NCBI GenBank assembly: GCA_000004985.1
Contig: GG738866.1
DNA: 64,000 nucleotides
Origin: Naegleria gruberi
Lineage: Eukaryota
Direction: 5' to 3' (one strand)
Shown: positions 2,357 through 37,300 of the stretch, piece after piece
Numbering within the stretch: position 1 is the stretch's first letter
Layout of the letters: every line of letters starts with the position of its first letter
Made by a program: the position numbers and the translations under genes
Notes under the pieces: generated by a model
Databases searched by the model: none
Told to the model about the DNA's origin: nothing
What the model saw: only the letters and a program-made list of their open reading frames with translations

Positions 2357-2430
2357 GCCTTCCTAGCTCAGTTGGCAGTAGCGCTGTCCTAGTAAGACAG
2401 AGGTCTTGGGTTCGATTCCCAAGGGAGGCA
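2357..2430 (+). tRNA. tRNA-Thr, anticodon AGU.
   Basis: Folded by hand. Acceptor stem GCCTTCC/GGGAGGC with one G-U pair. Anticodon stem CTGTC/GACAG with loop C-T-AGT-A-A, anticodon at 2391-2393. T-arm TTGGG/CCCAA with loop TTCGATT. Discriminator A. CCA is not encoded. Confidence 0.9.
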
Positions 2431-2727: not shown

Positions 2728-3408
2728 ATGGTTTGTGTCATTTTGCTATTGGATGTCAATAACACAGAATTGACCAACTCAACAGAAGAACACAGACGTT
2801 TATCTGCCAAGCTAAAGGATAAATATCAAACAACAGCCAAGTTGACCATCTTTGCACACTATTCCATCGATGATTCCAACAAACCTCAACATTATTTCAG
2901 CAGAAGAGATCCTTCATTCTCTCACAGCAGCTTACTAACTATGCCAGAATCTTCGTTCATCACAAACATTCTCCGATTTTATCCCAAAGCTCTAAAATAT
3001 GCACCTCCAGAATATAGAAATAATCAAGTTATAGTTTTGACAGCAGTTCGACATTATGATAGTTGTTTGGAATATGCTGGGGAGGAATTGTTGAATAGTT
3101 TACAGTTTGCTATGCGATTGGTGAGTGAGAGAGGTCTGTATTATAGATATTTACCTGAAAATGTCAAGTGTGAAAGACAAGTGGCAAGACAAGCTGTTAT
3201 GCAAAATGGGCACGTGTATCAGTTCCTATCTCAAGAATTGAGACAAGATGGAGAACTGTTAGTATTGGCAATGAAAACGAATAGTCAAGCCATTTCGTAT
3301 GCTCATCCTAAACTGTTATCTGAAATTAATAATCAAGAATTCAAGAGAGATTATTCTATACTATCTGAGAATAGAGATCATTTAAATGATTTGGCTATAA
3401 ATCCATAA
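2728..3408 (+). CDS. DUF4116-type repeat protein, 226 aa.
   Basis: Two or three ~45-aa repeats of the form ..ALKYAPPEYRNNQVIVLTAVRHYDSCLEYAGEEL.. and ..ARQAVMQNGHVYQFLSQELRQDGELLVLAMKTNSQAISYA.. These match the DUF4116 repeat pattern common in protist proteomes. Confidence 0.5.
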   Translation: MVCVILLLDVNNTELTNSTEEHRRLSAKLKDKYQTTAKLTIFAHYSIDDSNKPQHYFSRRDPSFSHSSLLTMPESSFITNILRFYPKALKYAPPEYRNNQVIVLTAVRHYDSCLEYAGEELLNSLQFAMRLVSERGLYYRYLPENVKCERQVARQAVMQNGHVYQFLSQELRQDGELLVLAMKTNSQAISYAHPKLLSEINNQEFKRDYSILSENRDHLNDLAINP

Positions 3409-3578: not shown

Positions 3579-5249
3579 ATGCAGCAAAATCGAAAGAATA
3601 GTAGGCAAGATCCAATTACATTGGAAAGGGTATACTTCTCTCCGGTATCATTGCAAAGTGATACTGAAAAACCATCATTATTCGAAAAAACTATTCGAAA
3701 GGAAAATCGTATTCATAATTTTTTCCTTAGTATTCGCATGAGTATTTGTACTTTCAATTTTATCATCTTTTTCATACTTGTTATAGTTTGTACATTAACT
3801 TTTGCTTTTTCCTTTCGCGATTCCTTTCGAATAGTTGAGAAGAAACAATCTGATGATTATTCGAAACAAACCATCAACGCTTTTCGAGATGAATTCTTAA
3901 ATCTTAATGACAAAATAGCCAACTATGCAATATGGGACAATATATACGAAATGGTCCATTCATCAAATGCTGCCAATCAAGTTTCTCTCTTCTTCCAAAC
4001 TTACTATCCCTGTTATTTCATGGAGAGAATGTCATTGAATTATATTGCAATGTATTATCCGAATGGTACCCTACTACATTACAAATCATGTTGGAATTTG
4101 GACGAAATTAATGGACTGATTGATGAATTAATTCATTTAGATTCGTTTTATTTAAGGAATTGGAATGATTCTTCAATGAGAGTGAATTCAATTTTGATAC
4201 CCAAACAGAAAATCAACAAGAAAACTTTCGAGTTGGAAATTCTTCCGCCAATTCAATTTAAAAATCATGCAAATCTTACGTATGAGGAAATTCTATTAAT
4301 TTCTGGAACCCCAATTCAAACTTTGAATACAAGTATGGCAGATGGGTTTATTATTTATGGAAGATATTTGGAAAGGGATGTTTTGAATGAAATTGCATTG
4401 AGAACTGGTCATTGCTTTACTGTTTATAATATGGATGATTTGACAGATGTGTCACAACTCAAAATTGATATGGATTTACAAAATGTGAATGGATTGAATG
4501 ATTCCCAAGTAGTATTTGAGTATTTAGAGAATGCCAATTATCATAATTTTGAATCTACTTTGAATGAATATTCATCTTTTTTTGATAGACACGAAATAGA
4601 AAGTTCAAGTTTTCTTACCAAAGTTTCACAAGTTTATTCATATGAAGATAGAACATGTCCTTCATACTTTGGAGTTTCAAATCCATCTACATCATCTGTT
4701 GGAACAAGATTAGTTAACTTTCTCTTATTCAGAGATTTTAAAAACAAGGCAGTAATGGTTGTGAGAATTGATGATGAGCGAAGGAATGAATCGATAATTA
4801 TTGGAGGATCCGCTTCAATCTATGTCTTCTTTGCACTTCTTTCCACAATCTTGAGTTTAGCATTGCAGGGATTTTTTGAAATTGGTATTATTCTAAGGGT
4901 TTCATCCATCCAAAAAATAATTAAGAAAGTCACACAAGACAATGACCCAACACTAAGAATACCCCCTCCAAAACACCAACTCCACGAAAAAGATGAAATT
5001 GGACAATTAGAAATCAACCTAAACGAAATGCTTCGAGCATTAGAATTGGTGCAACACAAACTCTCAAAAGATAACGAAATGATGAAAACAATTTTGGAGA
5101 GAATTACTGTAGAGGGAGAGAAATGTAAGGCAGTGATGAATAGTATTCAGGATTTTATATTTATTGTGGAGTGTGAGAGTGGAAAGTTGATTAGTTCGAA
5201 TGAAACATTTGAAAGAAAGGTTTCCAATGGTTCAAAAAATGTTTTGTGA
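3579..5249 (+). CDS. Two-TM sensor protein, 556 aa as annotated: large extracytoplasmic domain, then HAMP, then the start of a PAS domain. Broken by a frameshift at its 3' end.
   Basis: TM1 is ICTFNFIIFFILVIVCTLTFAF. It is followed by a ~330-aa N-glycosylation-rich ectodomain, then TM2 IIIGGSASIYVFFALLSTILSLALQGFF. A HAMP-like segment follows (..DEIGQLEINLNEMLRALELV..), then a PAS start (DFIFIVECESGKLISSNETFE). The ORF terminates at a TGA just after an A6 run at 5234-5239. Confidence 0.6.
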   Translation: MQQNRKNSRQDPITLERVYFSPVSLQSDTEKPSLFEKTIRKENRIHNFFLSIRMSICTFNFIIFFILVIVCTLTFAFSFRDSFRIVEKKQSDDYSKQTINAFRDEFLNLNDKIANYAIWDNIYEMVHSSNAANQVSLFFQTYYPCYFMERMSLNYIAMYYPNGTLLHYKSCWNLDEINGLIDELIHLDSFYLRNWNDSSMRVNSILIPKQKINKKTFELEILPPIQFKNHANLTYEEILLISGTPIQTLNTSMADGFIIYGRYLERDVLNEIALRTGHCFTVYNMDDLTDVSQLKIDMDLQNVNGLNDSQVVFEYLENANYHNFESTLNEYSSFFDRHEIESSSFLTKVSQVYSYEDRTCPSYFGVSNPSTSSVGTRLVNFLLFRDFKNKAVMVVRIDDERRNESIIIGGSASIYVFFALLSTILSLALQGFFEIGIILRVSSIQKIIKKVTQDNDPTLRIPPPKHQLHEKDEIGQLEINLNEMLRALELVQHKLSKDNEMMKTILERITVEGEKCKAVMNSIQDFIFIVECESGKLISSNETFERKVSNGSKNVL

Positions 5250-5542
5250 ATCAAATTATTTGTAATGAGAAGGATTTCATATCATTGGAAGAATCATTGC
5301 TAACTTTGGAATATTTATCTCAAAATCAGAATTGTGAAAGATATTTGGCCATACTCATTACGAATCCACTTGCTGAGAATGATAATCCATGGGATGACGA
5401 AACAATTCGAATAAGAAATGACATTCGTTCCAAGCACAACATTCCCATCACCTTATCAGTTGCCAAATCAAGAATTGTGTTATCGAAAGATACCATTGGA
5501 GATGCCTTTATCATTCTCGCTAAACCTCTCTTGGCGGTTTAA
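5246..5542 (+). pseudogene. Out-of-frame continuation of the sensor gene (rest of the PAS domain). It becomes contiguous with 3579..5249 if the A6 run at 5234-5239 is read as A7.
   Basis: Frame-2 ORF ..NQIICNEKDFISLEESLLTLEYLSQNQNCERYLAILITNPLAENDNPWDDETIRIRNDIRS..DTIGDAFIILAKP*. Inserting one A in the homopolymer gives a single ~654-aa ORF from 3579 to 5542. No intron can rescue this, because the alternative frame is closed until 5213. Confidence 0.4.
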
Positions 5543-5888
5543 TTTTCCTCATGTTTCATTATATTATAACGTAATTAATTGTGAGAATCATCTAAGCAAA
5601 TTTCGGGTAATTAAACCCTTATTAGGCCACTAAATGCGCGATCATTGCATTGCGGTTGCCAGCGAGAACTTATTATTAAGGAAACTCGAAACTATTAAGG
5701 GAAAGCATTGAAAAATTGCATCTCCACAATTTAAAAACAAAATAACCACGTTCCAACTTGATACTCACACACACTATATATTTGCCTTATTATATTTTTT
5801 TCAAGCGAGCAATAGGCAAAAAATTCAACAAACAATAAGACAATCCAAAGGTTCAAGTTAATAATAATATACAATATATAAGAATACC

Positions 5889-8644
5889 ATGAAGAATAAG
5901 GTAATTCCACAAGGTGAGGATAATACTCATCAACAAACACCTTCATCATCCACTTCATCAACAACACGAATGGCACTCCCAAACAAAACCTCCTCTAATA
6001 GCAGTATTGTTGTTGGGGGAGTGTCTCCTGTTGCCACATCTCCAGTAATGACCACCACCAACACCAACAACAAAACGACAAAACAAGATTCTTCCCAATC
6101 ATTCTCTATACAGGCAAGTGGGAAGGAGAGTGGTAAGGATTTAAAGGCCAGTTATCAAAGTTATCATTTTCATCCTAATCATGAGGATGAAAACGCCTCA
6201 ACCACCTCACATATGATGGAAATAGCCTATGGTGGAGGAATGTGTTTCAGATCAATAAGTTGCTGTTTGGTGGGGATTATATCTTCGTTGGTGATATTGT
6301 CGGTAGTTACATTGACTAGTATTTGGATATCAACTACTGTTCCAACATTAGCTGTGATGAGTTCGCAATTGAGAGTTGAGCAATTTTCAACAGTTGTAAA
6401 TAATATTAATCAAACGATACAGAATTTGGTCATTGGTATGTTTTTACTTTACCTTAATATACAAATAATACTTTTTCTAATTATAATTTAATATCTTGAT
6501 GGTATTTTTTATAGTATCTGAAACAACGAAAAGACTGTTAACAGAAGATTTTAATTTTTCAGATCCCTCCCTCATTGAAAAGACAATGTATAATTTGTAT
6601 AAGAGTGAAATGGCTCTAGGGCGATCTGAAATTACAATAACGCTGTATATTGGTGATACAGTGGGAAATTGTTGGGGGATTTATAGATCTGGTGATTCTG
6701 TCTTTTATCTAGATGTGAACAAACAACAGGGGCAGAAAATGTACCTTTGTGAAGATGTACAACACTCGGATTATTGCAAGAGAAATCTTGTGAATGCAAC
6801 TGTTGAACTGCCACCATTTGATCTTTCTCCATTGGTCACACATTCTCATGAGCATAGTGGAAGACCGTCATTTTCATTGAGTTATGTAGATTCGACAGTA
6901 CCTAGTGTGACTTTCCTTACACTCCTTAACACTTTCAATTCATCAAGAGTGAGCAATTTCAATTTCAATTATTATTTTGGTTATGATGTGACTTCAGCTT
7001 CAATTTCTTCTTTTCTAGAGAAACAAACCAAATCTGTTGATGGATCAGTTGCGTTTGTAATTGAAACTAAAACAGAATTCTTGATAGCATGTAGTGATAC
7101 TGCCCATCCCCTTGTTGAAGTTAATGAATCAAATGGAGAGGTGATCAGAAAAACTGGATTAACTTTTGCAGATGAATTAACATTCAAAATCGCTCAATTC
7201 ATGTATCATAGTGTAAATAATAATCTGAGCTCCCTAACTTGCGGAAAGGTTCTGTTGGCAGAGGGATCGTTGTACTATATCAATGCTATGAGAGTTTGTT
7301 CAGAACAGGATTTGGACTGGATTATCGTTTGGGCAACACCTCAGAATAGATATACTCAGAGTACAGTAATTGCATTGACAGTGTCTGGAATTTCAAGTAT
7401 TATCATTATCAGTGTTGCTCTCATTGTTGGATTTTTAGCATCCAAGTCAATTGTAAAACCATTTCACAAATTTATGCAGGCAGCAGAATCAATATCAAAT
7501 ATGGAATTGGAATCCTTTTCATTCTCAGATACTCGTATTATTGAAGTGGAAAAGCTGCAAAAAATGTTTGTCATGTTGGCAAATCGATTGAAAACCTACA
7601 GAAGTTTCCTACCTTCTAACGTCTTACTTGAAATTGATAATGGTGGAAAGGATATTAATGCCAATTCAAGTTATCACACCAAAGAATCTCATTTGGGATC
7701 ATTCCTAGTTGGAGGACATAGTAGAGGTTCAAGTTCTTTCAGCTTTAAGAAGAACAAACTGGCTTTAAGATTGGAAAAGAGACAAGTGACAATGTGTGGA
7801 ATTTATATTGAAGGATTTGATTATTGCATACATCATTTGGATTATCACGATATTATTATCATGTTGAGTGATTTATTTGACTCGATTCATAAAACTAGTC
7901 TGACTTCAGCTGCAGAAGTTGGACAATTCGATAACGAGCTCATCACTTTGGCCTGGAACTCCCTGGCTGATCAACCAAACCACATCTTTAGAGGAATTTC
8001 AAATTGTCACATTCTTAGAGATAAACTCTTGAAATCCCTTGAAAAATGGAATGCCAGAGAAGATATTGATCAAGCTCTCAATATTCGAATGTCGCTCCAC
8101 ACTCAAGAATCAATTGTTGGAAATATAGGTACGAGAGAAGCAAAGAGTCATGCCTCCATAGGAAGTTGCCATGCCAACATGAAGAAACTTTCCAAAACTT
8201 GTTCCAGCTTCTCAATTTCACTTCTGGTAACTGAACCAATTCACAAGGAATCTTCCGAATCATTCCTTACAAGATATATCGACACTATTCGATTGTTCCG
8301 TCAAAATGACTGCAGTATTAATATGAGTGAGGAAAAAACAGAAGATGTTGCAGTGTACGAAATTGGAAATAGAAATGATGTTAAAATGGATGGTAAGTAA
8401 TGCAAATATTATTGGCTTAACTAAACTATTTAAATTTCTAATAGAATGGATGTATGAATTGAAGGAAAGGGGAGAGAAAACCAAATGGGATCGATACATT
8501 CTAGGATGTCAATATTTCCACAATGAAGATTACAAAGAAGCTTTCGAATTTTTCGAAGATTATGAAACAATTTTCGAGGAAAGATATGGTCGCTCTGATT
8601 TACCAACTCTAAATCTAATGGCCAAGTGTAAATTGCATTTATAA
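5889..8644 (+). CDS. Receptor-type cyclase-homology protein with three exons: two-TM sensor, HAMP, then a class III nucleotidyl-cyclase-like domain with degenerate catalytic residues. About 874 aa.
   Basis: join(5889..6435,6515..8392,8445..8644). Intron 1 is a 79-nt GTATGT...ATAG intron and intron 2 is a 52-nt GTAAGT...AATAG intron; both restore the frame exactly. TM1 and TM2 flank a ~300-aa ectodomain, followed by HAMP (VKPFHKFMQAAESISNMELESF). The cyclase-homology domain reads RQVTMCGIYIEGFDY....AEVGQFDNELITLAWNS....ALNIRMSLHTQESIVGNIGT...SIGSCHANMKK. In the F-x-D-I-V-G-F-T position the first metal Asp is a Tyr. In the GDTVNxASR position Asn and Arg are replaced. Confidence 0.7.
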
Positions 8645-8676
8645 ACAGATAATTTCTTAGTGTTTCAGTAGTTCAT

Positions 8677-9810
8677 ATGTTTTCAAAAATTTGGAAGGCT
8701 TCTCTGACCTGTCATGATCTAAATATAAAGATTACAAAAAAAATGGGCAACAAGCAACCTTCCAACACTCCAGCCTTGCCTGCTGGTTATTCAAAGTCTT
8801 CATCATCGTGTACACCATCGAAGAGTAGTGGCCACTCTTTAATTACTGATTATTTTTCTACCAATTGTAAATTAATTAGAATTAGTGATGCTGATCGGAA
8901 ACAAGAATTGGAAAGTATGAATAGAAACAAAATTAAATATTCAAGTAAATTGGAAAATAATTTACCAGAGGAAATGATCATTCACATTTTGGATTATTTA
9001 CCCATTAGAAATTTAGTATTATTGCAACAAGTTTCGAAAAATTTCAAAATCTATTGGACTCTGTTTCCAGAATTGTGGACTAAATTTTCTGCTCCAATGA
9101 TGTACATGCCAGACAATAACGGAAATTGGACTAGCAGTTATATTCTCTTTCAACAATTCAAATTCAAATTGATGAATTCTTTTGTGAAGGATAAGAAAAC
9201 TCCTAATTTAGAAGGAAAAATTTCAAGAATTGCAGTGTTGGGTGATGATAAAATTGGAAAGACAATCCTTCATCATAGAGCATTTGGAGGTGAACCATTT
9301 TCAGAGATTTACACTTGGACCATTGGTGTCGAGTTTTTCAATCGAATTAATACTCAAAATTTATTGAGAATGCATTCGTGGGATTCTGGTGGTAATGAAC
9401 GATTTAGGGAAATTGTTTGGGGATATCACAAGACTGTAAAGAGTCACTTTTATTGTTTTGATTTGAATAATCACAATTCTTTTGAGAATGCCAAGAAATT
9501 ATTCTACTCTTGGAAGGAAAGATTTTTACAAACTGAAACTGTCGAGTCATTTTTGCAAAGTAATGAATCGTGCATTCTTCTACTGGGATTGAAATCAGAT
9601 TTGGAGCATAAAGTGACTCGAGATGAAATTCATGAATTTTTGGAAGATATTGAGCCACTTAAAAACAAGACACTTCACACCAGCAAAGTTCAATATTTTG
9701 AATTGAGCTCTAAATTAGATTCTGAATCGGATCTGCTTTTCCCATTTATTTATGCATGTTCGGTGGCGATTGAAAGGCCTCTTTTTTCTTCTTTTGGAGG
9801 TTCTAAATAG
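8677..9810 (+). CDS. F-box protein fused to a Rab-like small-GTPase domain with atypical G3/G4 motifs, 377 aa.
   Basis: F-box: LPEEMIIHILDYLPIRNLVLLQQVSKNFKIYWTLFPELW. GTPase domain: G1 is GDDKIGKT and switch I is TIGVEF. G3 is WDSGGNERF where the canonical form is WDTAGQERF (catalytic Gln is Asn). G4 is LKSD where the canonical form is NKxD. Confidence 0.7.
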   Translation: MFSKIWKASLTCHDLNIKITKKMGNKQPSNTPALPAGYSKSSSSCTPSKSSGHSLITDYFSTNCKLIRISDADRKQELESMNRNKIKYSSKLENNLPEEMIIHILDYLPIRNLVLLQQVSKNFKIYWTLFPELWTKFSAPMMYMPDNNGNWTSSYILFQQFKFKLMNSFVKDKKTPNLEGKISRIAVLGDDKIGKTILHHRAFGGEPFSEIYTWTIGVEFFNRINTQNLLRMHSWDSGGNERFREIVWGYHKTVKSHFYCFDLNNHNSFENAKKLFYSWKERFLQTETVESFLQSNESCILLLGLKSDLEHKVTRDEIHEFLEDIEPLKNKTLHTSKVQYFELSSKLDSESDLLFPFIYACSVAIERPLFSSFGGSK

Positions 9811-30406: not shown

Positions 30407-31966
30407 TTATGAGACAACATTTCTTAGCAGGTTTTCCAATAATTTATCGTTTTGAATGACAGTACTCTTCAGCGAGTTGATCTTTTCCAATTTATCCAAA
30501 ATATTTTGCTCCAATTCTCTCAGTTGAGCTTGGACTGAGGAAACTTCTTGGTCAGTTTTCAGTCTTTCTTCTATTAATCGCTGTCTCTGAACTTCCACTT
30601 CCTTTCTCCACATGTCATGTTCTCTTTGCATACTGTCTAAATCTTCTTGAATGTAATCCATAGTTTTACCAAGAGGATTCACCTTGGAAACAATTGTTTG
30701 AATTTGTTCTCTCAAACTTGATAATTCTGTTGTTGTTTGTTCTTTATCCTTTTCCTTCTTACCAGTTTGCAGAACAATTCCCTTTACAGGTTCGTCACTG
30801 CTCTTTTGAGGAACAGTCTTACCTTGGGATCGTTTCTTTTCAATATCATTCTCATTTTCCATCAATTTACTCATCAAACTACCCTTTTGTTCGGTTGTAA
30901 CTTGCACAGATGATCGAACTGCATTCTTTTCAATGATAATTTGTTCCTCTTCCTTTTCTTCAGTATCATCAGTGATTAAGCCTTCAGCCCCTTTTGGTTC
31001 AATTTGGGCCTTCTCTGTTGGCATTTCCTGAGTATCAATAGTTCTTACATTGGTCTTAATTTTTGGTGGAGCTCTTCTTGCAGATTGACCTCTAGATGAG
31101 AAAGGTCTGGAATATTGAGCGAGATTTGGGTCATCCATTTGTCCTTGCATTTGCTCCTCTTGATTGCTGGGCGTAGAAGGTTTAGAAACTTCTCTTCCAG
31201 AACTTGGTCTAGAGTTGTTAGCAGGTTTTGGTTGTTGCATATCGATTGATGTTGGGGTTGTTGATCTATCATCTTTAGATGGTGTTGGTGGTTTTGTTTG
31301 AACTGGTTGTTGAGGTTTTGATGTTGACTCATTTTGTGGATTTACAGTAGTTGGAGATGTTGGTGATGGTTGTTGTGATTGTTGAGTTTGTTGAGTTTGT
31401 TGTGTTGTAGGTCTTGCTTGACCTGTTGTTTGTTGTGTTGTAGGCCTTGCTCCAGCTCCTTCAGGTGCTGAATCTTCACGTTCAGTAACATCCTTGTATT
31501 TTCCAGATTTAATTCTTTCAATTGCCTCCTTATATTTGTATTTATCCTTATTTCCAGCAGCTGTAGCAAGAGCTTTGAAGAATAAACAAGTGTTTTTTGG
31601 ATTTTCCTTTCCTTTGATTAATAAATCAACTTTTACATTCACATTCTTTCTGATGGTATGAACTACAACGTTAATTAATTGTTTTAAGAATAACGTTTTT
31701 TCGTCGGTGTTCTAAATTTCAAGATCAACAATTTTTGAATTCATCAAACTGCTTACCATTTCCTTTTTTAAAAACTCATCATCAAACAATCCTTCAGGAT
31801 AACCCGTTTCCTTTTTCAAATGAAAAACAACAGCGGCAATAAACTTGGTTGGAGGTTTTGCCAAATGTTTTTCCTGAATAGGTGGTTTGGAAATGAGAGC
31901 TTCAAGTTCTTGTTTTGTCTTTGAGAGAGCCTTCTTAGTCTCCTCATCATAGTTTTCATCACTCAT
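30407..31966 (-). CDS. ift54: Intraflagellar transport protein 54 (TRAF3IP1/MIP-T3 homologue), two exons, about 504 aa.
   Basis: complement(join(30407..31711,31757..31966)). Exon 1 ends ..GLFDDEFLKKEM at a GTAAGC donor. A 45-nt intron ends TTTAG. Exon 2 continues NTDEKTLFLKQLINVVVHTIRKNV.., matching the MIP-T3 N-terminal microtubule-binding region (..KISFLQKAIDVVVMVSG..). The C-terminus QIQTIVSKVNPLGKTMDYIQEDLDSMQREHDMWRKE...LRELEQNILDKLEKI aligns with the conserved MIP-T3 coiled-coil ([33 protein letters not shown]...). Confidence 0.8.
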
Positions 31967-34304: not shown

Positions 34305-37300
34305 TTATTCATCTTCATGGATTGGAGAGGAGGCTGAAAGTGGACTGGAAGGTGTGTTTGGTAGAGAGCTTGTCAATAAAATGTTATTATCGGATGTATT
34401 GTGTGCAGGAGTGACAAGAGTTGTGTTGATAGATTTTGGAATGATTGTTGGCTGGAACATTTCATCAATGAGGGACAACACTTGCCAATAGTCAGTCTTA
34501 ATGGAAAGATGAGCATTTTCCTCTTTTTGAGTCAACTTGATAAGGAGGTGATATTTAGGAGGGAGAAAGATGAAAATATAATCATTCTGATTCACTGCAA
34601 ATAATTTGTAACTATCCATAACCTCACTCACCTGTGTATTTCTCAATACTTTGACACTTGATACAATTTTAGCATCCTTACAATTCCAAATGGCCTCAAA
34701 GAGTGTCTCTTTAGTGAGATTATCTGGGAGGTCCTTGTCAAAGATTGGTAGGAATAAGTCTTTAAATTCAATGGAAATGTCATTCAATACAGTTTGACAG
34801 TAGGCAGTAGATGGCTCAATAGTAGTCGATTGTGTTGATGATTTAATGCCAGTGAAGGTGGCAGTGACATTAATGAGGCCAGGAAGAGGTTTCAATGGGA
34901 AAAATTTGATGGTGAATAAGTGATCGGATGGGAGAAGGATATCCTCTTCTTGTGAGGTTTTAAGATCGAGTGATGGAAGTTTAATGTATGGAACATTAAT
35001 AAAATTATCAATTCCAACAAATCGATGAGCATCTTCACCTCCAAATGACAACTCAATGCCAACCAATTTGTCCATATCCAAACTGAGAGAGGAAACATTC
35101 ATTGGTGATAACTTGTACTGTAATTGAATTTGATACTTGAAACTCTTCAAATATTTTTCAAAATAAAAGTGGAGAATATGGGAAGAATCGTCCTTTCTCA
35201 AAGATCCCAGATGTGCAGCAGACCCAACCCTGAATGAGTTGGTTTGTTGCTCCAGTGAAAGCTCATGACAAATATTCTTCACAAATGAAACACTGAGAAT
35301 ATTTGGTACTGGAATTGGTTCAGTAATTTCAAAGACATTGCCTGATCCAAGAATTCCATCCTTCTTAATATCCAAATCTGTTTCAAAACCAAAAATACCC
35401 AAAAGTTTCCTCTTATTTGTTACCTGGTTGATTATGTTAAAGTAAAAGCTACTCCTTTGTTTGATTTCCAAACTATTATAATCCTGAATGAGTAGAGTTA
35501 AAATATTATTACTGATTTCCTGTTGTTCTTGCTCAAGGTGGACCTCATCATTTTTGAAACAGGATGGTTCATTACATGCACGATAGACAACCATTCTAAT
35601 GATGGAAAGAACAGAATCTCCATGATGCCAATCACCAAAATTGGCAATGAGCTTGCTCCTCACAAATTTATGAAGACAAGATAACATTTTCTAATAATTT
35701 GCTGAATTAATAATGAAGAAAGAGTATGAAACATACAGTTACTTGATCCTTTCTCAAGTTGTTAATCAGCGCCTCAAAGAGCGAGAAATAATAGCCAAGG
35801 TTTTCATTTGGTAGATTGACTATGTGATCGAATAGTCCATTCACTAATTCATTATTTGAGTCTGTAAAACTTAGTGAATTGATTAATGAAATTGTATAAT
35901 TCAAAATTGGAGAAATTAAAAGATTCAAACTACTTTCTCTTTCCAACATGTCAACCAAAAAGCTAAATATTATATGTTAAATATTTCTAGGCAATTAGAA
36001 CTTACTCCAGGGTTGGTTTGTATTGAGTGGAATTATTTTGATAGGAGAAATAGATGAAATTGAATATAATATCTAAACGAATGTATAATTGTCTTTCAAT
36101 TCTAGAAACATTTGGAGCACTTTCTTCTTGAATTTGTGGCTGCTTGAATGATTTGCTATAGTATTTGGAGAGGGCCTTCATGTAATATCTGTAATCGGCT
36201 ACACAGTCCAGTAAATGTAACATGTTCCTTTTTAGAGAATATGGGTCAATAAATTCATACTTGTTTCAAAACTTACTCCATATCGTTAGTTTTCCTGGTT
36301 GAAATAATTTTGCACTTTTCCTTCTTAATTGGTAGTTCATCAAAATATTTAATTCCAATCTTTTCTGGATTGTTTTGGAAATAAAGTAATTGCTCTCTCA
36401 CATACAAAGGCTGACTATAATCATCCACACTCAATACGTAGTCATCTCTAATATGTTGCTTATTTGAAATGGTATTATGGCAAAATATATGAACCAAATA
36501 CGAGTTGATACTATGTTTGAATTTCCTAAAAACTCGTTTCCAAACATGATCTGGATATTCAGTATCCTTGATAATTTGTGAAATTATTTCAAAAATTGCA
36601 GCTCTTCCCCAAATTGTAAAGATCTGAATATTTTCAATAAGAAAAGTCAAACTATTGACAACTTCTCTCTTTGTCTTGTTTGTTTCCAAATAAATTAAAT
36701 TTGCTAATAAGGTAGAAAATGATTGAAGGGCATGTGAATTCTCAGTCTGACAACACTTCAACACTGTTGGAATAAAATCTGTAATTCTAACATGATAAAA
36801 GTAGAGTATTTCTTGAAGAGAATCTGCTGCCATCTGTCTTTGAAGTCTAAACTGTGAATTATTTACTGTTTTTGAAATATATTGCATCAGAGAAGAAATG
36901 TGATTGGCAATCATTGTTGGATTCACTTGATGTAAATTGTGTGTAATGTACATGGTTGTTATTGTCACTAAAAGTTGAGCATAGGTAATATCATCCACCT
37001 TTCCACTGTTAATTATATTCTGTAAATCTGTTAAATATTCATAAAGCCTTCAGATAATTTAAATTATTTAAATAATAACAAAATAATAAATTTAAATAAT
37101 GAATTATTTAAAATCATATTCCATAAATCAATCCTGAAATTATAAACCTACTTGGGAATATTATTTCTAAACAAGACACTCGAATATTCTTGTAAAAACA
37201 CACAAACATAAATCTTTCGAGCAATTAATTGTTGAGCATCAGTGTACTTTTCCGAATCAATTTTTCCTTCCGAATTTCTACATTGATAATCAACACTTGG

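What the first reader, a model, noticed from the sequence alone, without database searches (positions are those of the whole stretch)
3579..8644. Tandem pair of two-TM sensor-HAMP receptors: one ends in PAS, the other in a degenerate cyclase-homology domain
Two adjacent same-strand genes share the architecture TM, ~300-330-aa ectodomain, TM, HAMP. The first (3579..5542) continues into a PAS domain. The second (5889..8644, three exons) continues into a class III nucleotidyl-cyclase-homology domain. In that domain the first metal-binding Asp (F-x-D-I-V-G-F-T position) is Tyr, and the Asn/Arg of the GDTVNxASR transition-state motif are replaced (..SIGSCHANMKK..). The sensor-HAMP-(pseudo)cyclase combination is bacterial-style signalling logic in a eukaryote. 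The degenerate active site suggests a regulatory pseudo-cyclase or the inactive half of a heterodimer, not a standalone enzyme. The two ectodomains are not obviously homologous to each other, so this is not a simple duplication.
Basis: partly seen in the sequence, partly recalled or inferred. Interest (0 to 1): 0.6.

Follow-up and report, generated by a model that had tools for sequence, protein, structure and literature searches.

The report
Two amoeboflagellate receptor genes; one pseudo-cyclase
Two neighbouring genes of a Naegleria-like amoeba encode bacterial-style membrane sensors, and the second belongs to a large Naegleria/Willaertia family of receptor "adenylate cyclases" that keeps the cyclase fold but has lost every residue needed to make cAMP.

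Summary
The observation largely holds. Gene 2 (exons 5889-6435, 6515-8392, 8445-8644; 874 aa) reads TM, double-Cache ectodomain, TM, HAMP, disordered linker, class III cyclase-homology domain (CHD), TPR-like tail.

All six catalytic positions are substituted: D,D,K,T,N,R become Y613, E657, Q653, A729, A736, K740. Neither half-site survives, so it cannot be the complementing half of a C1/C2-type heterodimer.

It belongs to a large paralogous family in Naegleria and Willaertia. None of the ~85 nearest cluster representatives keeps the first metal Asp. Fully canonical relatives with the same architecture are mostly unnamed; those named are bacterial. A 98.8%-identical metagenome contig indicates purifying selection (13 synonymous, 5 non-synonymous differences).

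Gene 1 (3579-5542) is TM, CHASE4 (Pfam 6e-11), TM, HAMP. Its PAS domain could not be confirmed, its reading frame breaks near 5240, and no homologue was found.

Nothing links the two genes functionally. Verdict: a new member of an already annotated family, of modest interest.

The parts
3579..5542 (+). Gene 1 coding region (about 637-654 aa, depending on how the frame break is resolved)
   Evidence: ORF 3579-5249 plus ORF 5246-5542 in another frame. No homologue found.
3741..3809 (+). Gene 1 TM1 (aa 55-77)
   Evidence: Kyte-Doolittle peak 2.78.
3879..4427 (+). Gene 1 CHASE4 domain (aa 101-283) inside the ectodomain 3810-4805
   Evidence: Pfam PF05228: E 6.1e-11, 43.1 bits against a cut-off of 26.2, full profile 1-140 covered.
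4806..4874 (+). Gene 1 TM2 (aa 410-432)
   Evidence: Kyte-Doolittle peak 2.02.
4875..5063 (+). Gene 1 HAMP (aa 433-495, contains DEIGQL...NEM)
   Evidence: Pfam HAMP 15.8 bits, E 0.018, AS2 only, below the cut-off of 25. NCBIfam YfiN positions 152-235, E 2e-4.
5091..5539 (+). Gene 1 C-terminal domain of about 150 aa.
   Evidence: No Pfam, NCBIfam or PDB sequence match. AF2 single-sequence pLDDT 35.
5220..5269 (+). Gene 1 frame break: either a weak 50-nt intron or a 1-nt indel in the A6 run at 5234-5239
   Evidence: Three-frame translation. Splice-site candidates are poor. Adding one A gives a single 654-aa ORF.
5889..6435 (+). Gene 2 exon 1: Ser/Thr/Asn-rich cytoplasmic N-terminus (aa 1-121), TM1 (6252-6326), start of the ectodomain
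   Evidence: The family HMM hits this exon at 8e-20.
6436..6514 (+). Gene 2 intron 1 (79 nt, GTATGT...TATAG)
   Evidence: The only GT..AG pair in the donor and acceptor ranges scanned that keeps the frame open.
6327..7365 (+). Gene 2 ectodomain (aa 147-466), double-Cache (tandem PDC) fold; interrupted by intron 1
7366..7440 (+). Gene 2 TM2 (aa 467-491)
   Evidence: Kyte-Doolittle peak 2.52.
7441..7605 (+). Gene 2 HAMP (aa 492-546; Pro498 at the start of AS1 and Glu526 at the start of AS2 are conserved in the family)
   Evidence: NCBIfam NarQ positions 144-227, E 7e-7. AF2 helices. Foldseek match to an McpB/McpC model over 435 columns. P390 and E418 (trimmed numbering) are nearly invariant.
7606..7647 (+). 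Conserved post-HAMP motif FLPSNVLLEI (family consensus YRxFIPxHxL). It matches the YVPSVLVNQL that precedes strand beta1 in the bacterial relatives.
7654..7746 (+). Ser/Gly-rich disordered insertion (aa 563-593). The one bacterial canonical relative inspected (P0148) has only ~10 residues here.
   Evidence: AF2 pLDDT <50. Comparison with P0148.
7759..8385 (+). Degenerate class III cyclase-homology domain (aa 598-806). Catalytic positions: Y613 (7804-7806), Q653 (7924-7926), E657 (7936-7938), A729 (8152-8154), A736/N737 (8173-8178), K740 (8185-8187).
8393..8444 (+). Gene 2 intron 2 (52 nt, GTAAGT...AATAG)
   Evidence: It differs at 5 of 52 sites from contig L001, against 20 of 2078 in the exons.
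8445..8644 (+). Gene 2 exon 3: TPR-like four-helix tail (aa 809-874, motif EWMYEL) and stop codon
   Evidence: AF2 helices 702-765 in trimmed numbering, pLDDT >90. Weak TPR matches. The bacterial relatives have an equivalent tail.

Best explanation
Gene 2 encodes a dimeric type-II-topology membrane receptor descended from bacterial-type dCache-HAMP-adenylate cyclases. An extracellular small-molecule ligand would bind the double-Cache ectodomain. The signal would pass through TM2 and the HAMP four-helix bundle to a cytoplasmic cyclase-homology domain followed by a TPR-like tail. That domain keeps the class III fold but has lost both metal-binding Asp, the substrate-specifying Lys and Thr/Asp, and the transition-state Asn and Arg. 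It therefore most likely makes no cyclic nucleotide. It would act instead as a conformational or binding output module, either through partner proteins bound by the pseudo-CHD dimer and its tail, or by forming dead heterodimers with active paralogues. It is one member of a large, selectively maintained Naegleria/Willaertia paralogue family sharing this degeneracy.

Gene 1 is an unrelated, independently acquired Cache-superfamily receptor: CHASE4, HAMP, then a small C-terminal domain of unknown fold. It happens to lie upstream.

Shown: the architecture, the fold, the residue substitutions, family membership and purifying selection. Inferred: the absence of catalysis, ligand-driven signalling and the nature of the output.

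For: Degeneracy. hmmalign with CyaB and bPAC gives Y,E,Q,A,A,K where the canonical residues are D,D,K,T,N,R. Only 14 of 125 aligned homologues are fully canonical, all at rank 86 or lower in the search. Those that carry a name are Lentisphaerota/Victivallaceae bacteria.

Family. Among the 30 cluster representatives looked up, the named ones among the closer hits are N. gruberi, N. lovaniensis, N. fowleri and Willaertia magna proteins. Several are annotated 'adenylate/guanylate cyclase' or 'Guanylate cyclase domain-containing'.

Selection. Against a 98.8%-identical contig there are 13 synonymous and 5 non-synonymous differences in 691 codons.

Ancestry. The bacterial relatives share the TPR-like tail and the YVPxxL motif, as well as the conserved W, H, GNxG and R positions.
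Against: No activity assay exists. Glu657 could still bind one metal, and an Asn sits one residue from the canonical Asn position. A pairwise alignment does align it to the catalytic Asn, so some residual or altered chemistry cannot be excluded. The residue mapping rests on profile alignment at about 15% identity, and model coordinates could not be inspected. The ligand, the partners and the expression pattern are unknown. The ~30-aa disordered insertion between HAMP and the CHD might uncouple the two modules.
Confidence: 0.72

Rival explanations
1. Gene 2 is the non-catalytic but complementing half of an asymmetric heterodimeric cyclase, like mammalian C1/C2 or sGC alpha/beta. It would supply one set of active-site residues to a partner subunit.
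For: Class III cyclases work as dimers, and asymmetric pairs with one degenerate site are well established (general knowledge). sGC and AC5/8/9 are among the structural matches. Naegleria genomes hold many CHD paralogues (at least 81).
Against: Both residue sets are missing in gene 2: Asp1 to Tyr and Asp2 to Glu on one side, and Lys to Gln, Thr/Asp to Ala, Asn to Ala and Arg to Lys on the other. No 'C2-like' member (K,N,R kept but D/D lost) was found among the 125 homologues. No other CHD lies in the window.
Confidence: 0.1
2. Gene 2 is still an enzyme, with an altered mechanism or substrate that uses a re-tooled site (Glu657, Asn737, Lys740 and family-conserved Asn664 and His672).
Against: The first metal Asp position is filled by Y, H, F, L, K, R and others with no conservation, which is not what a new catalytic residue would show. 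H672, GNxG, R769 and W663 are also conserved in the canonical bacterial relatives. They are therefore inherited structural positions and not a new site.
Confidence: 0.1
3. The two genes form a functional receptor pair. Gene 1, which has no output domain, would signal through or modulate gene 2.
For: They share a strand and lie 346 bp apart. Both are 2-TM Cache-superfamily/HAMP receptors, and gene 1 has no recognisable output domain.
Against: There is no sequence similarity and no shared family. The nearest N. lovaniensis homologue of gene 2 has a WD40 gene upstream and nothing resembling gene 1 within 10 kb. Adjacent eukaryotic genes are not expected to be co-transcribed. Gene 1 may carry a frameshift.
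Confidence: 0.06
4. Gene 2 is a decaying pseudogene of a once active cyclase.
For: All catalytic residues are lost, and Pfam finds nothing in the protein.
Against: The 874-codon reading frame is intact across two correctly spliced introns. There is a 13:5 excess of synonymous changes against a sister strain. AF2 confidence is very high. The same degenerate pattern is kept across dozens of paralogues in four named species.
Confidence: 0.02

Closest known systems
Naegleria/Willaertia 'adenylate/guanylate cyclase' paralogues. Examples: N. gruberi XP_002673367, XP_002676329 and XP_002679537; N. lovaniensis XP_044550760; N. fowleri XP_044569515; W. magna KAL9642403.
   Same: They align over the full length at 28-34% identity (E 1e-119 to 1e-80). 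They share the architecture TM-dCache-TM-HAMP-linker-CHD-EWMYEL tail, and they also lack the first metal Asp.
   Different: None is an obvious orthologue. The only match closer than 34% identity is a metagenome contig of a sister strain. Some paralogues keep the second Asp, where gene 2 has Glu.
Bacterial dCache-HAMP-class III adenylate cyclases of Lentisphaerota/Victivallaceae MAGs (e.g. MFA6102554.1, about 693 aa)
   Same: The domain order is the same, including the ~65-aa TPR-like tail and the YVPxxL motif after HAMP. The W, H, GNxG and R positions in the CHD are shared.
   Different: They carry the complete DDKTNxR catalytic signature. The one inspected (P0148) lacks the disordered insertion before CHD strand beta1; N-termini were not compared.
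P. aeruginosa CyaB, Spirulina CyaC and Synechocystis Cya2 catalytic domains (PDB 3r5g, 1wc1, 2w01)
   Different: CyaB carries all six canonical catalytic residues, and all three are solved as cyclases (entry titles). Sequence identity is 12-18%, and six of the six catalytic positions differ in gene 2.
dCache chemoreceptor and kinase sensor domains (PctD 7prq, PscC 6mni, McpU 6f9g, Mlp37 3c8c/5ave)
   Different: The output is a CHD, not an MCP or kinase module. The ligand-binding residues were not analysed, and the ligand is unknown.
Class III adenylyl cyclase-like ATP-binding protein of P. aeruginosa (PDB 6yii)
   Different: It is a soluble transcriptional-regulator context, is only distantly similar, and has no sensor-HAMP input.
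Mammalian AC C1/C2 and soluble guanylate cyclase alpha/beta pseudo-heterodimers
   Same: They have the CHD fold, and one of the two dimer sites is degenerate and used for regulation (general knowledge; matches).
   Different: Each of their subunits keeps one intact half-set of catalytic residues. Gene 2 keeps neither.

Membership tests
Class III nucleotidyl cyclase (catalytically competent) | Cyclase-homology-domain fold | tested here: met
Class III nucleotidyl cyclase (catalytically competent) | Pfam PF00211 Guanylate_cyc match above the gathering score | tested here: not met
   No hit for gene 2 at E <= 1. 16 of 40 homologues do hit it, and the family profile reaches PDB cyclases at 2e-19.
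Class III nucleotidyl cyclase (catalytically competent) | Two metal-binding Asp residues | tested here: not met
   Tyr613 and Glu657 at the CyaB Asp positions.
Class III nucleotidyl cyclase (catalytically competent) | Substrate-specifying Lys and Asp/Thr (or Glu/Cys in guanylate cyclases) | tested here: not met
   Gln653 and Ala729.
Class III nucleotidyl cyclase (catalytically competent) | Transition-state Asn and Arg (the NxxxR of GDxVNxASR) | tested here: not met
   Ala736 and Lys740 in the profile alignment. Asn737 is displaced by one residue, and a pairwise alignment with a gap aligns it to the Asn. The Arg is absent either way.
Class III nucleotidyl cyclase (catalytically competent) | Cyclic nucleotide synthesis in vitro | not testable with these tools
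   Needs an enzyme assay.
C1/C2-type complementing subunit of a heterodimeric cyclase | One complete half-set of active-site residues (either D/D, or K + D/T + N + R) | tested here: not met
   Both half-sets are substituted. No K/N/R-only members were found among the 125 homologues.
HAMP domain (gene 2) | About 50 aa directly after TM2, with two amphipathic helices joined by a connector, a Pro near the AS1 start and a Glu at the AS2 start | tested here: met
   AF2 helices ending at 402 and spanning 417-438 in trimmed numbering. Pro and Glu are nearly invariant in the family. NCBIfam NarQ TM2-HAMP segment at E 7e-7. Pfam HAMP itself gives no hit.
HAMP domain (gene 1) | Pfam PF00672 above the gathering score, or the canonical DEIGxL...N.M motif after TM2 | tested here: inconclusive
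   Pfam scores 15.8 bits against a cut-off of 25, AS2 only. NCBIfam YfiN TM2-HAMP at E 2e-4. The DEIGQLEINLNEM motif is present in the sequence.
dCache (double PDC) extracellular sensor (gene 2) | Tandem PDC fold between two TM helices with a long N-terminal stalk helix | tested here: met
CHASE4 (gene 1) | Pfam PF05228 above the gathering score, located between two TM helices | tested here: met
   43.1 bits against 26.2, E 6.1e-11, full-length profile match at aa 101-283 between TMs 55-77 and 410-432.
PAS domain (gene 1 C-terminus) | A match to any PAS-clan profile, or a five-stranded antiparallel sheet with flanking helices in a confident model | tested here: inconclusive
   No Pfam or NCBIfam (TIGR00229) match at E <= 10 in either junction version. 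No PDB sequence match. The AF2 single-sequence model has pLDDT 35. No homologues were available to build a profile.

The most novel reading that the evidence does not exclude
Heterolobosean amoeboflagellates have turned a whole bacterial-type receptor-cyclase family, with many paralogues per genome, into non-catalytic receptors. These would signal through a pseudo-CHD dimer plus TPR-like tail without making cAMP. If so, a sizeable part of the '81-108 cyclases' counted in Naegleria genomes are pseudoenzymes with an undiscovered output mechanism. In addition, the Cache ectodomain, reported in a single Naegleria protein, is in fact widespread there.
Probability: 0.45. Interest if true: 0.55.

Novelty: new member of a known kind. 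Interest (0 to 1): 0.35.

Why it matters
Naegleria genomes are cited for an exceptional number of membrane adenylate/guanylate cyclases, taken as evidence of rich cAMP-based environmental sensing. If the dCache-HAMP subfamily to which gene 2 belongs is uniformly non-catalytic, those counts overstate cAMP-generating capacity. They would also hide a large class of pseudoenzyme receptors whose output is unknown. The family is a natural series, running from fully canonical bacterial enzymes to fully degenerate eukaryotic ones, for studying how a signalling enzyme becomes a pseudoenzyme. For this particular locus the result is mostly annotation: one more paralogue, plus an orphan CHASE4-HAMP gene with a questionable reading frame.

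Tried and rejected
(1) Direct Pfam and NCBIfam scans of gene 2 found no CHD, HAMP or Cache family at E <= 1, apart from partial TM2-HAMP alignments.

(2) The word-index homologue search recovered only the same gene from a metagenome for gene 2. It found nothing for gene 1, even at E <= 10.

(3) For gene 1, the JGI metagenome scan, tblastn against plasmids and PDB phmmer on both the ectodomain and the HAMP-C-terminus all found nothing.

(4) The AF2 single-sequence model of gene 1 had pLDDT 35. It was not used for a fold search.

(5) Intron models for the gene 1 frame break were set aside. Every in-frame GT..AG pair has a non-consensus donor or acceptor, or is 32 nt long. I prefer a 1-nt homopolymer indel, but this is unproven.

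(6) The synteny test using the N. lovaniensis homologue showed unrelated neighbours. That homologue is probably a paralogue, so the test is weak. The look-up for N. gruberi P0003 failed.

(7) The idea that family-conserved N, H and R residues form a new active site was rejected. H672, GNxG, R769 and W663 are equally conserved in the canonical bacterial relatives.

The afdb50 fold library was unavailable.

(9) The Fritz-Laylin 2010 genome paper is not held. Literature searches for pseudo-cyclases gave nothing specific.

Full report
**Source and setting.** The window is AT-rich (GC about 0.32-0.37) eukaryotic nuclear DNA with short GT..AG introns. Its genes include a ciliary MIP-T3/IFT54 homologue, an AP-5 beta-like protein, F-box/LRR proteins, Ras-family GTPases, a DUF4116 protein and a DEAD-box helicase. 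Every named close homologue of gene 2 comes from Naegleria gruberi, N. lovaniensis, N. fowleri or Willaertia magna. The organism is therefore a heterolobosean amoeboflagellate. It is not one of those sequenced strains, because the only near-identical match is a 2.9-kb ENA metagenome contig (98.8% nucleotide identity).

**Gene models.** Gene 2 is 5889-6435, 6515-8392 and 8445-8644, giving 874 aa.
- Within the donor and acceptor ranges scanned, intron 1 (79 nt, GTATGT..TATAG) is the only GT..AG pair that keeps the frame open.
- Intron 2 (52 nt, GTAAGT..AATAG) is one of three in-frame GT..AG options. It is the one with a consensus GTAAGT donor. It also differs at 5 of 52 positions from the sister contig, against 20 of 2078 in the exons.
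- In the 691 codons shared with that contig there are 13 synonymous and 5 non-synonymous differences. This indicates purifying selection.

Gene 1 starts at 3579. Its frame ends at 5249 and continues in another frame to 5542.
- All in-frame GT..AG candidates have poor splice sites, for example GTTTCC...AATGAG.
- Adding one A to the A6 run at 5234-5239 gives a single 654-aa ORF.
- My own estimate is that 98 stop-free codons downstream are unlikely by chance in AT-rich DNA.
- I therefore favour an assembly indel or a very recent frameshift over an intron. I cannot decide between these without reads.

**Gene 2 architecture.**
- Hydropathy gives two TM segments, 122-146 and 467-491.
- Pfam finds no family at E <= 1.
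- Pairwise phmmer of the C-terminal part against PDB already puts CyaB, a class III adenylyl cyclase, on top at E = 0.037.
- The exhaustive phmmer search found 1584 proteins at E <= 1e-3, and 55 at E <= 1e-30. Many align over the full length at 28-34% identity.
- In a 40-sequence alignment, 16 members hit Pfam Guanylate_cyc, 3 hit MCP-like_PDC_1, 2 hit NIT and 8 carry ankyrin repeats.
- A profile of that alignment hits PDB class III cyclases: CyaB 2.4e-19, Cya2 1e-17, bPAC 7e-14, and mammalian AC5/8/9 at 1e-8 to 1e-5. It also hits dCache sensor domains (6e-5 to 2e-3) and, weakly, TPR proteins.
- AlphaFold2 with 117 sequences gave mean pLDDT 89.3. Only the extreme N-terminus and residues 563-593 fall below 50.
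- Foldseek agrees, with CyaB TM 0.84. It also aligns 435 columns to a B. subtilis McpB/McpC dCache-TM-HAMP model.
- The HAMP is supported by the AF2 helices, the family-conserved Pro and Glu and a NarQ TM2-HAMP partial match at E 7e-7.

The protein therefore reads, from the N-terminus:
1. a low-complexity N-terminus,
2. TM1,
3. a dCache ectodomain,
4. TM2,
5. HAMP,
6. the FLPxxxL helix,
7. a disordered Ser/Gly-rich linker,
8. the CHD,
9. a four-helix TPR-like tail.

**Catalytic positions.** CHD segments of 125 homologues were aligned to the family HMM together with CyaB and bPAC. Gene 2 compares with the canonical residues as follows:

| Role | Canonical | Gene 2 |
|---|---|---|
| Metal Asp 1 | D | Tyr613 |
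| Metal Asp 2 | D | Glu657 |
| Substrate Lys | K | Gln653 |
| Substrate Thr/Asp | T | Ala729 |
| Transition-state Asn | N | Ala736 (an Asn follows at 737) |
| Transition-state Arg | R | Lys740 |

Its reading of the Asn/Arg motif is essentially correct. A gapped pairwise alignment can place Asn737 on the catalytic Asn, but the Arg is missing in either alignment.

A class III site is built from the two Asp of one subunit and the Lys, Thr/Asp, Asn and Arg of the other (established knowledge). A protein lacking both sets cannot complement a partner, so the 'inactive half of a heterodimer' option is not supported. A heterodimer with a canonical subunit would have no intact site.

**The degeneracy is a family trait.** None of the nearest ~85 cluster representatives has the first Asp. 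That position is filled by Y, H, F, L, K, R, N, T, E, Q or S without conservation. Fourteen homologues carry the complete DDK(T/S)NxR signature, all at rank 86 or lower. Seven were looked up. P0148 belongs to Lentisphaerota/Victivallaceae MAGs, P0128 is an unattributed JGI 'adenylate cyclase', P0086 is an MMETSP eukaryote transcript, and four carry no name.

The canonical relatives share the domain order, the ~65-aa TPR-like tail and the YVPxxL motif between HAMP and strand beta1. They also share the conserved W663, H672, GNxG and R769 positions. Those positions are therefore inherited structural features and do not form a new active site. The eukaryotic family adds N656, N664 and N737. It also carries a variable stretch of about 40 unconserved residues before beta1 in the family consensus. 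In gene 2 this stretch is disordered, and in P0148 it is replaced by about 10 residues.

The simplest reading is descent from a bacterial-type dCache-HAMP-cyclase, followed by loss of catalysis and paralogue expansion in Heterolobosea. The direction of transfer is inferred, not shown.

**Gene 1.**
- The TM segments are 55-77 and 410-432.
- The ectodomain contains a full-length CHASE4 match: 43.1 bits against a cut-off of 26.2, E 6e-11.
- CHASE4 is placed in the Cache clan, as a single-domain family, by Upadhyay et al. 2016 (PMC4822843). The two ectodomains are therefore remote relatives, although they share no detectable sequence similarity.
- The HAMP is sub-threshold in Pfam (15.8 bits). It is supported by the YfiN TM2-HAMP partial match (2e-4) and the DEIGQL...NEM motif.
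They could not be modelled (pLDDT 35).
- No homologue was found by any route open to me.
- The PAS call remains a plausible guess from the sequence pattern, not a finding.

**Are the two genes a pair?** I found no evidence for it. There is no similarity and no shared family. There is no other CHD or relative of either gene in the window. Nothing resembling gene 1 lies near the closest N. lovaniensis homologue, although that homologue is probably a paralogue.

**Comparison with what is known.** Membrane-bound adenylate/guanylate cyclases are a recognised Naegleria expansion: 'at least 81 cyclases' in PMC9928731. One N. gruberi paralogue of gene 2 is annotated 'adenylate/guanylate cyclase'. Several N. 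lovaniensis and N. fowleri paralogues are annotated 'Guanylate cyclase domain-containing protein'. [quoted passage not shown] The profile and fold evidence here indicates that the dCache ectodomain is shared by the whole paralogue family and is simply missed by the Pfam models.

I did not find a description of this subfamily as catalytically degenerate in the searchable literature. The search covers open-access papers only, and the genome paper was not available. A non-catalytic CHD has a precedent in PDB 6yii, whose entry title reads 'class III adenylyl cyclase-like ATP-binding protein'.

**Verdict.** Gene 1's PAS domain and intact reading frame are unverified. Gene 2 is a new member of an already annotated heterolobosean family. 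The point worth keeping is that this family appears to consist of pseudo-cyclase receptors.
- Interest: 0.35.
- Novelty: new member of a known kind.
- Confidence in the architecture: above 0.9.
- Confidence that it is non-catalytic: about 0.7.

Noticed in passing
window 5220-5269 (A6 run at 5234-5239): The gene 1 reading frame shifts here. No good splice sites are present. One extra A would restore a 654-aa ORF, which suggests a homopolymer assembly error or a very recent frameshift.
   Followed up: partly
window 8677-9810 (+): An F-box domain (aa 95-129) fused to a Ras/Roc/Arf-like small GTPase domain (aa 180-350) starts only 32 bp after the gene 2 stop codon. Against the sister-strain contig it shows 2 synonymous and 4 non-synonymous differences in 230 codons.
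   Followed up: partly
L001 position ~277 (window ~6773): The ENA metagenome contig (ERZ929261, 98.8% identical to window 6498-9366) has a 1-nt deletion inside gene 2 exon 2. Prokaryotic gene calling split the gene there into fragments P0001 and P0046. A sister strain of this organism is therefore present in sample PRJEB11402.
   Followed up: partly
The source organisms are unknown.
   Followed up: no
family alignment A1 and PMC4822843: The literature states that Cache occurs in one Naegleria protein. Here the dCache ectodomain is shared by all full-length paralogues, but Pfam detects it in only 3 of 40.
   Followed up: partly
window 2357-2430 (+) and 2728-3408 (+): A tRNA-Thr(AGU) gene and a protein made of four DUF4116 repeats lie just upstream of gene 1.
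   Followed up: no
window 30407-31642 (-), 34305-35687 (-): A MIP-T3/IFT54 C-terminal domain gene (ciliary) and an AP-5 beta-like gene are present. Both fit a flagellate-capable amoeba with a full adaptor complement.
   Followed up: no
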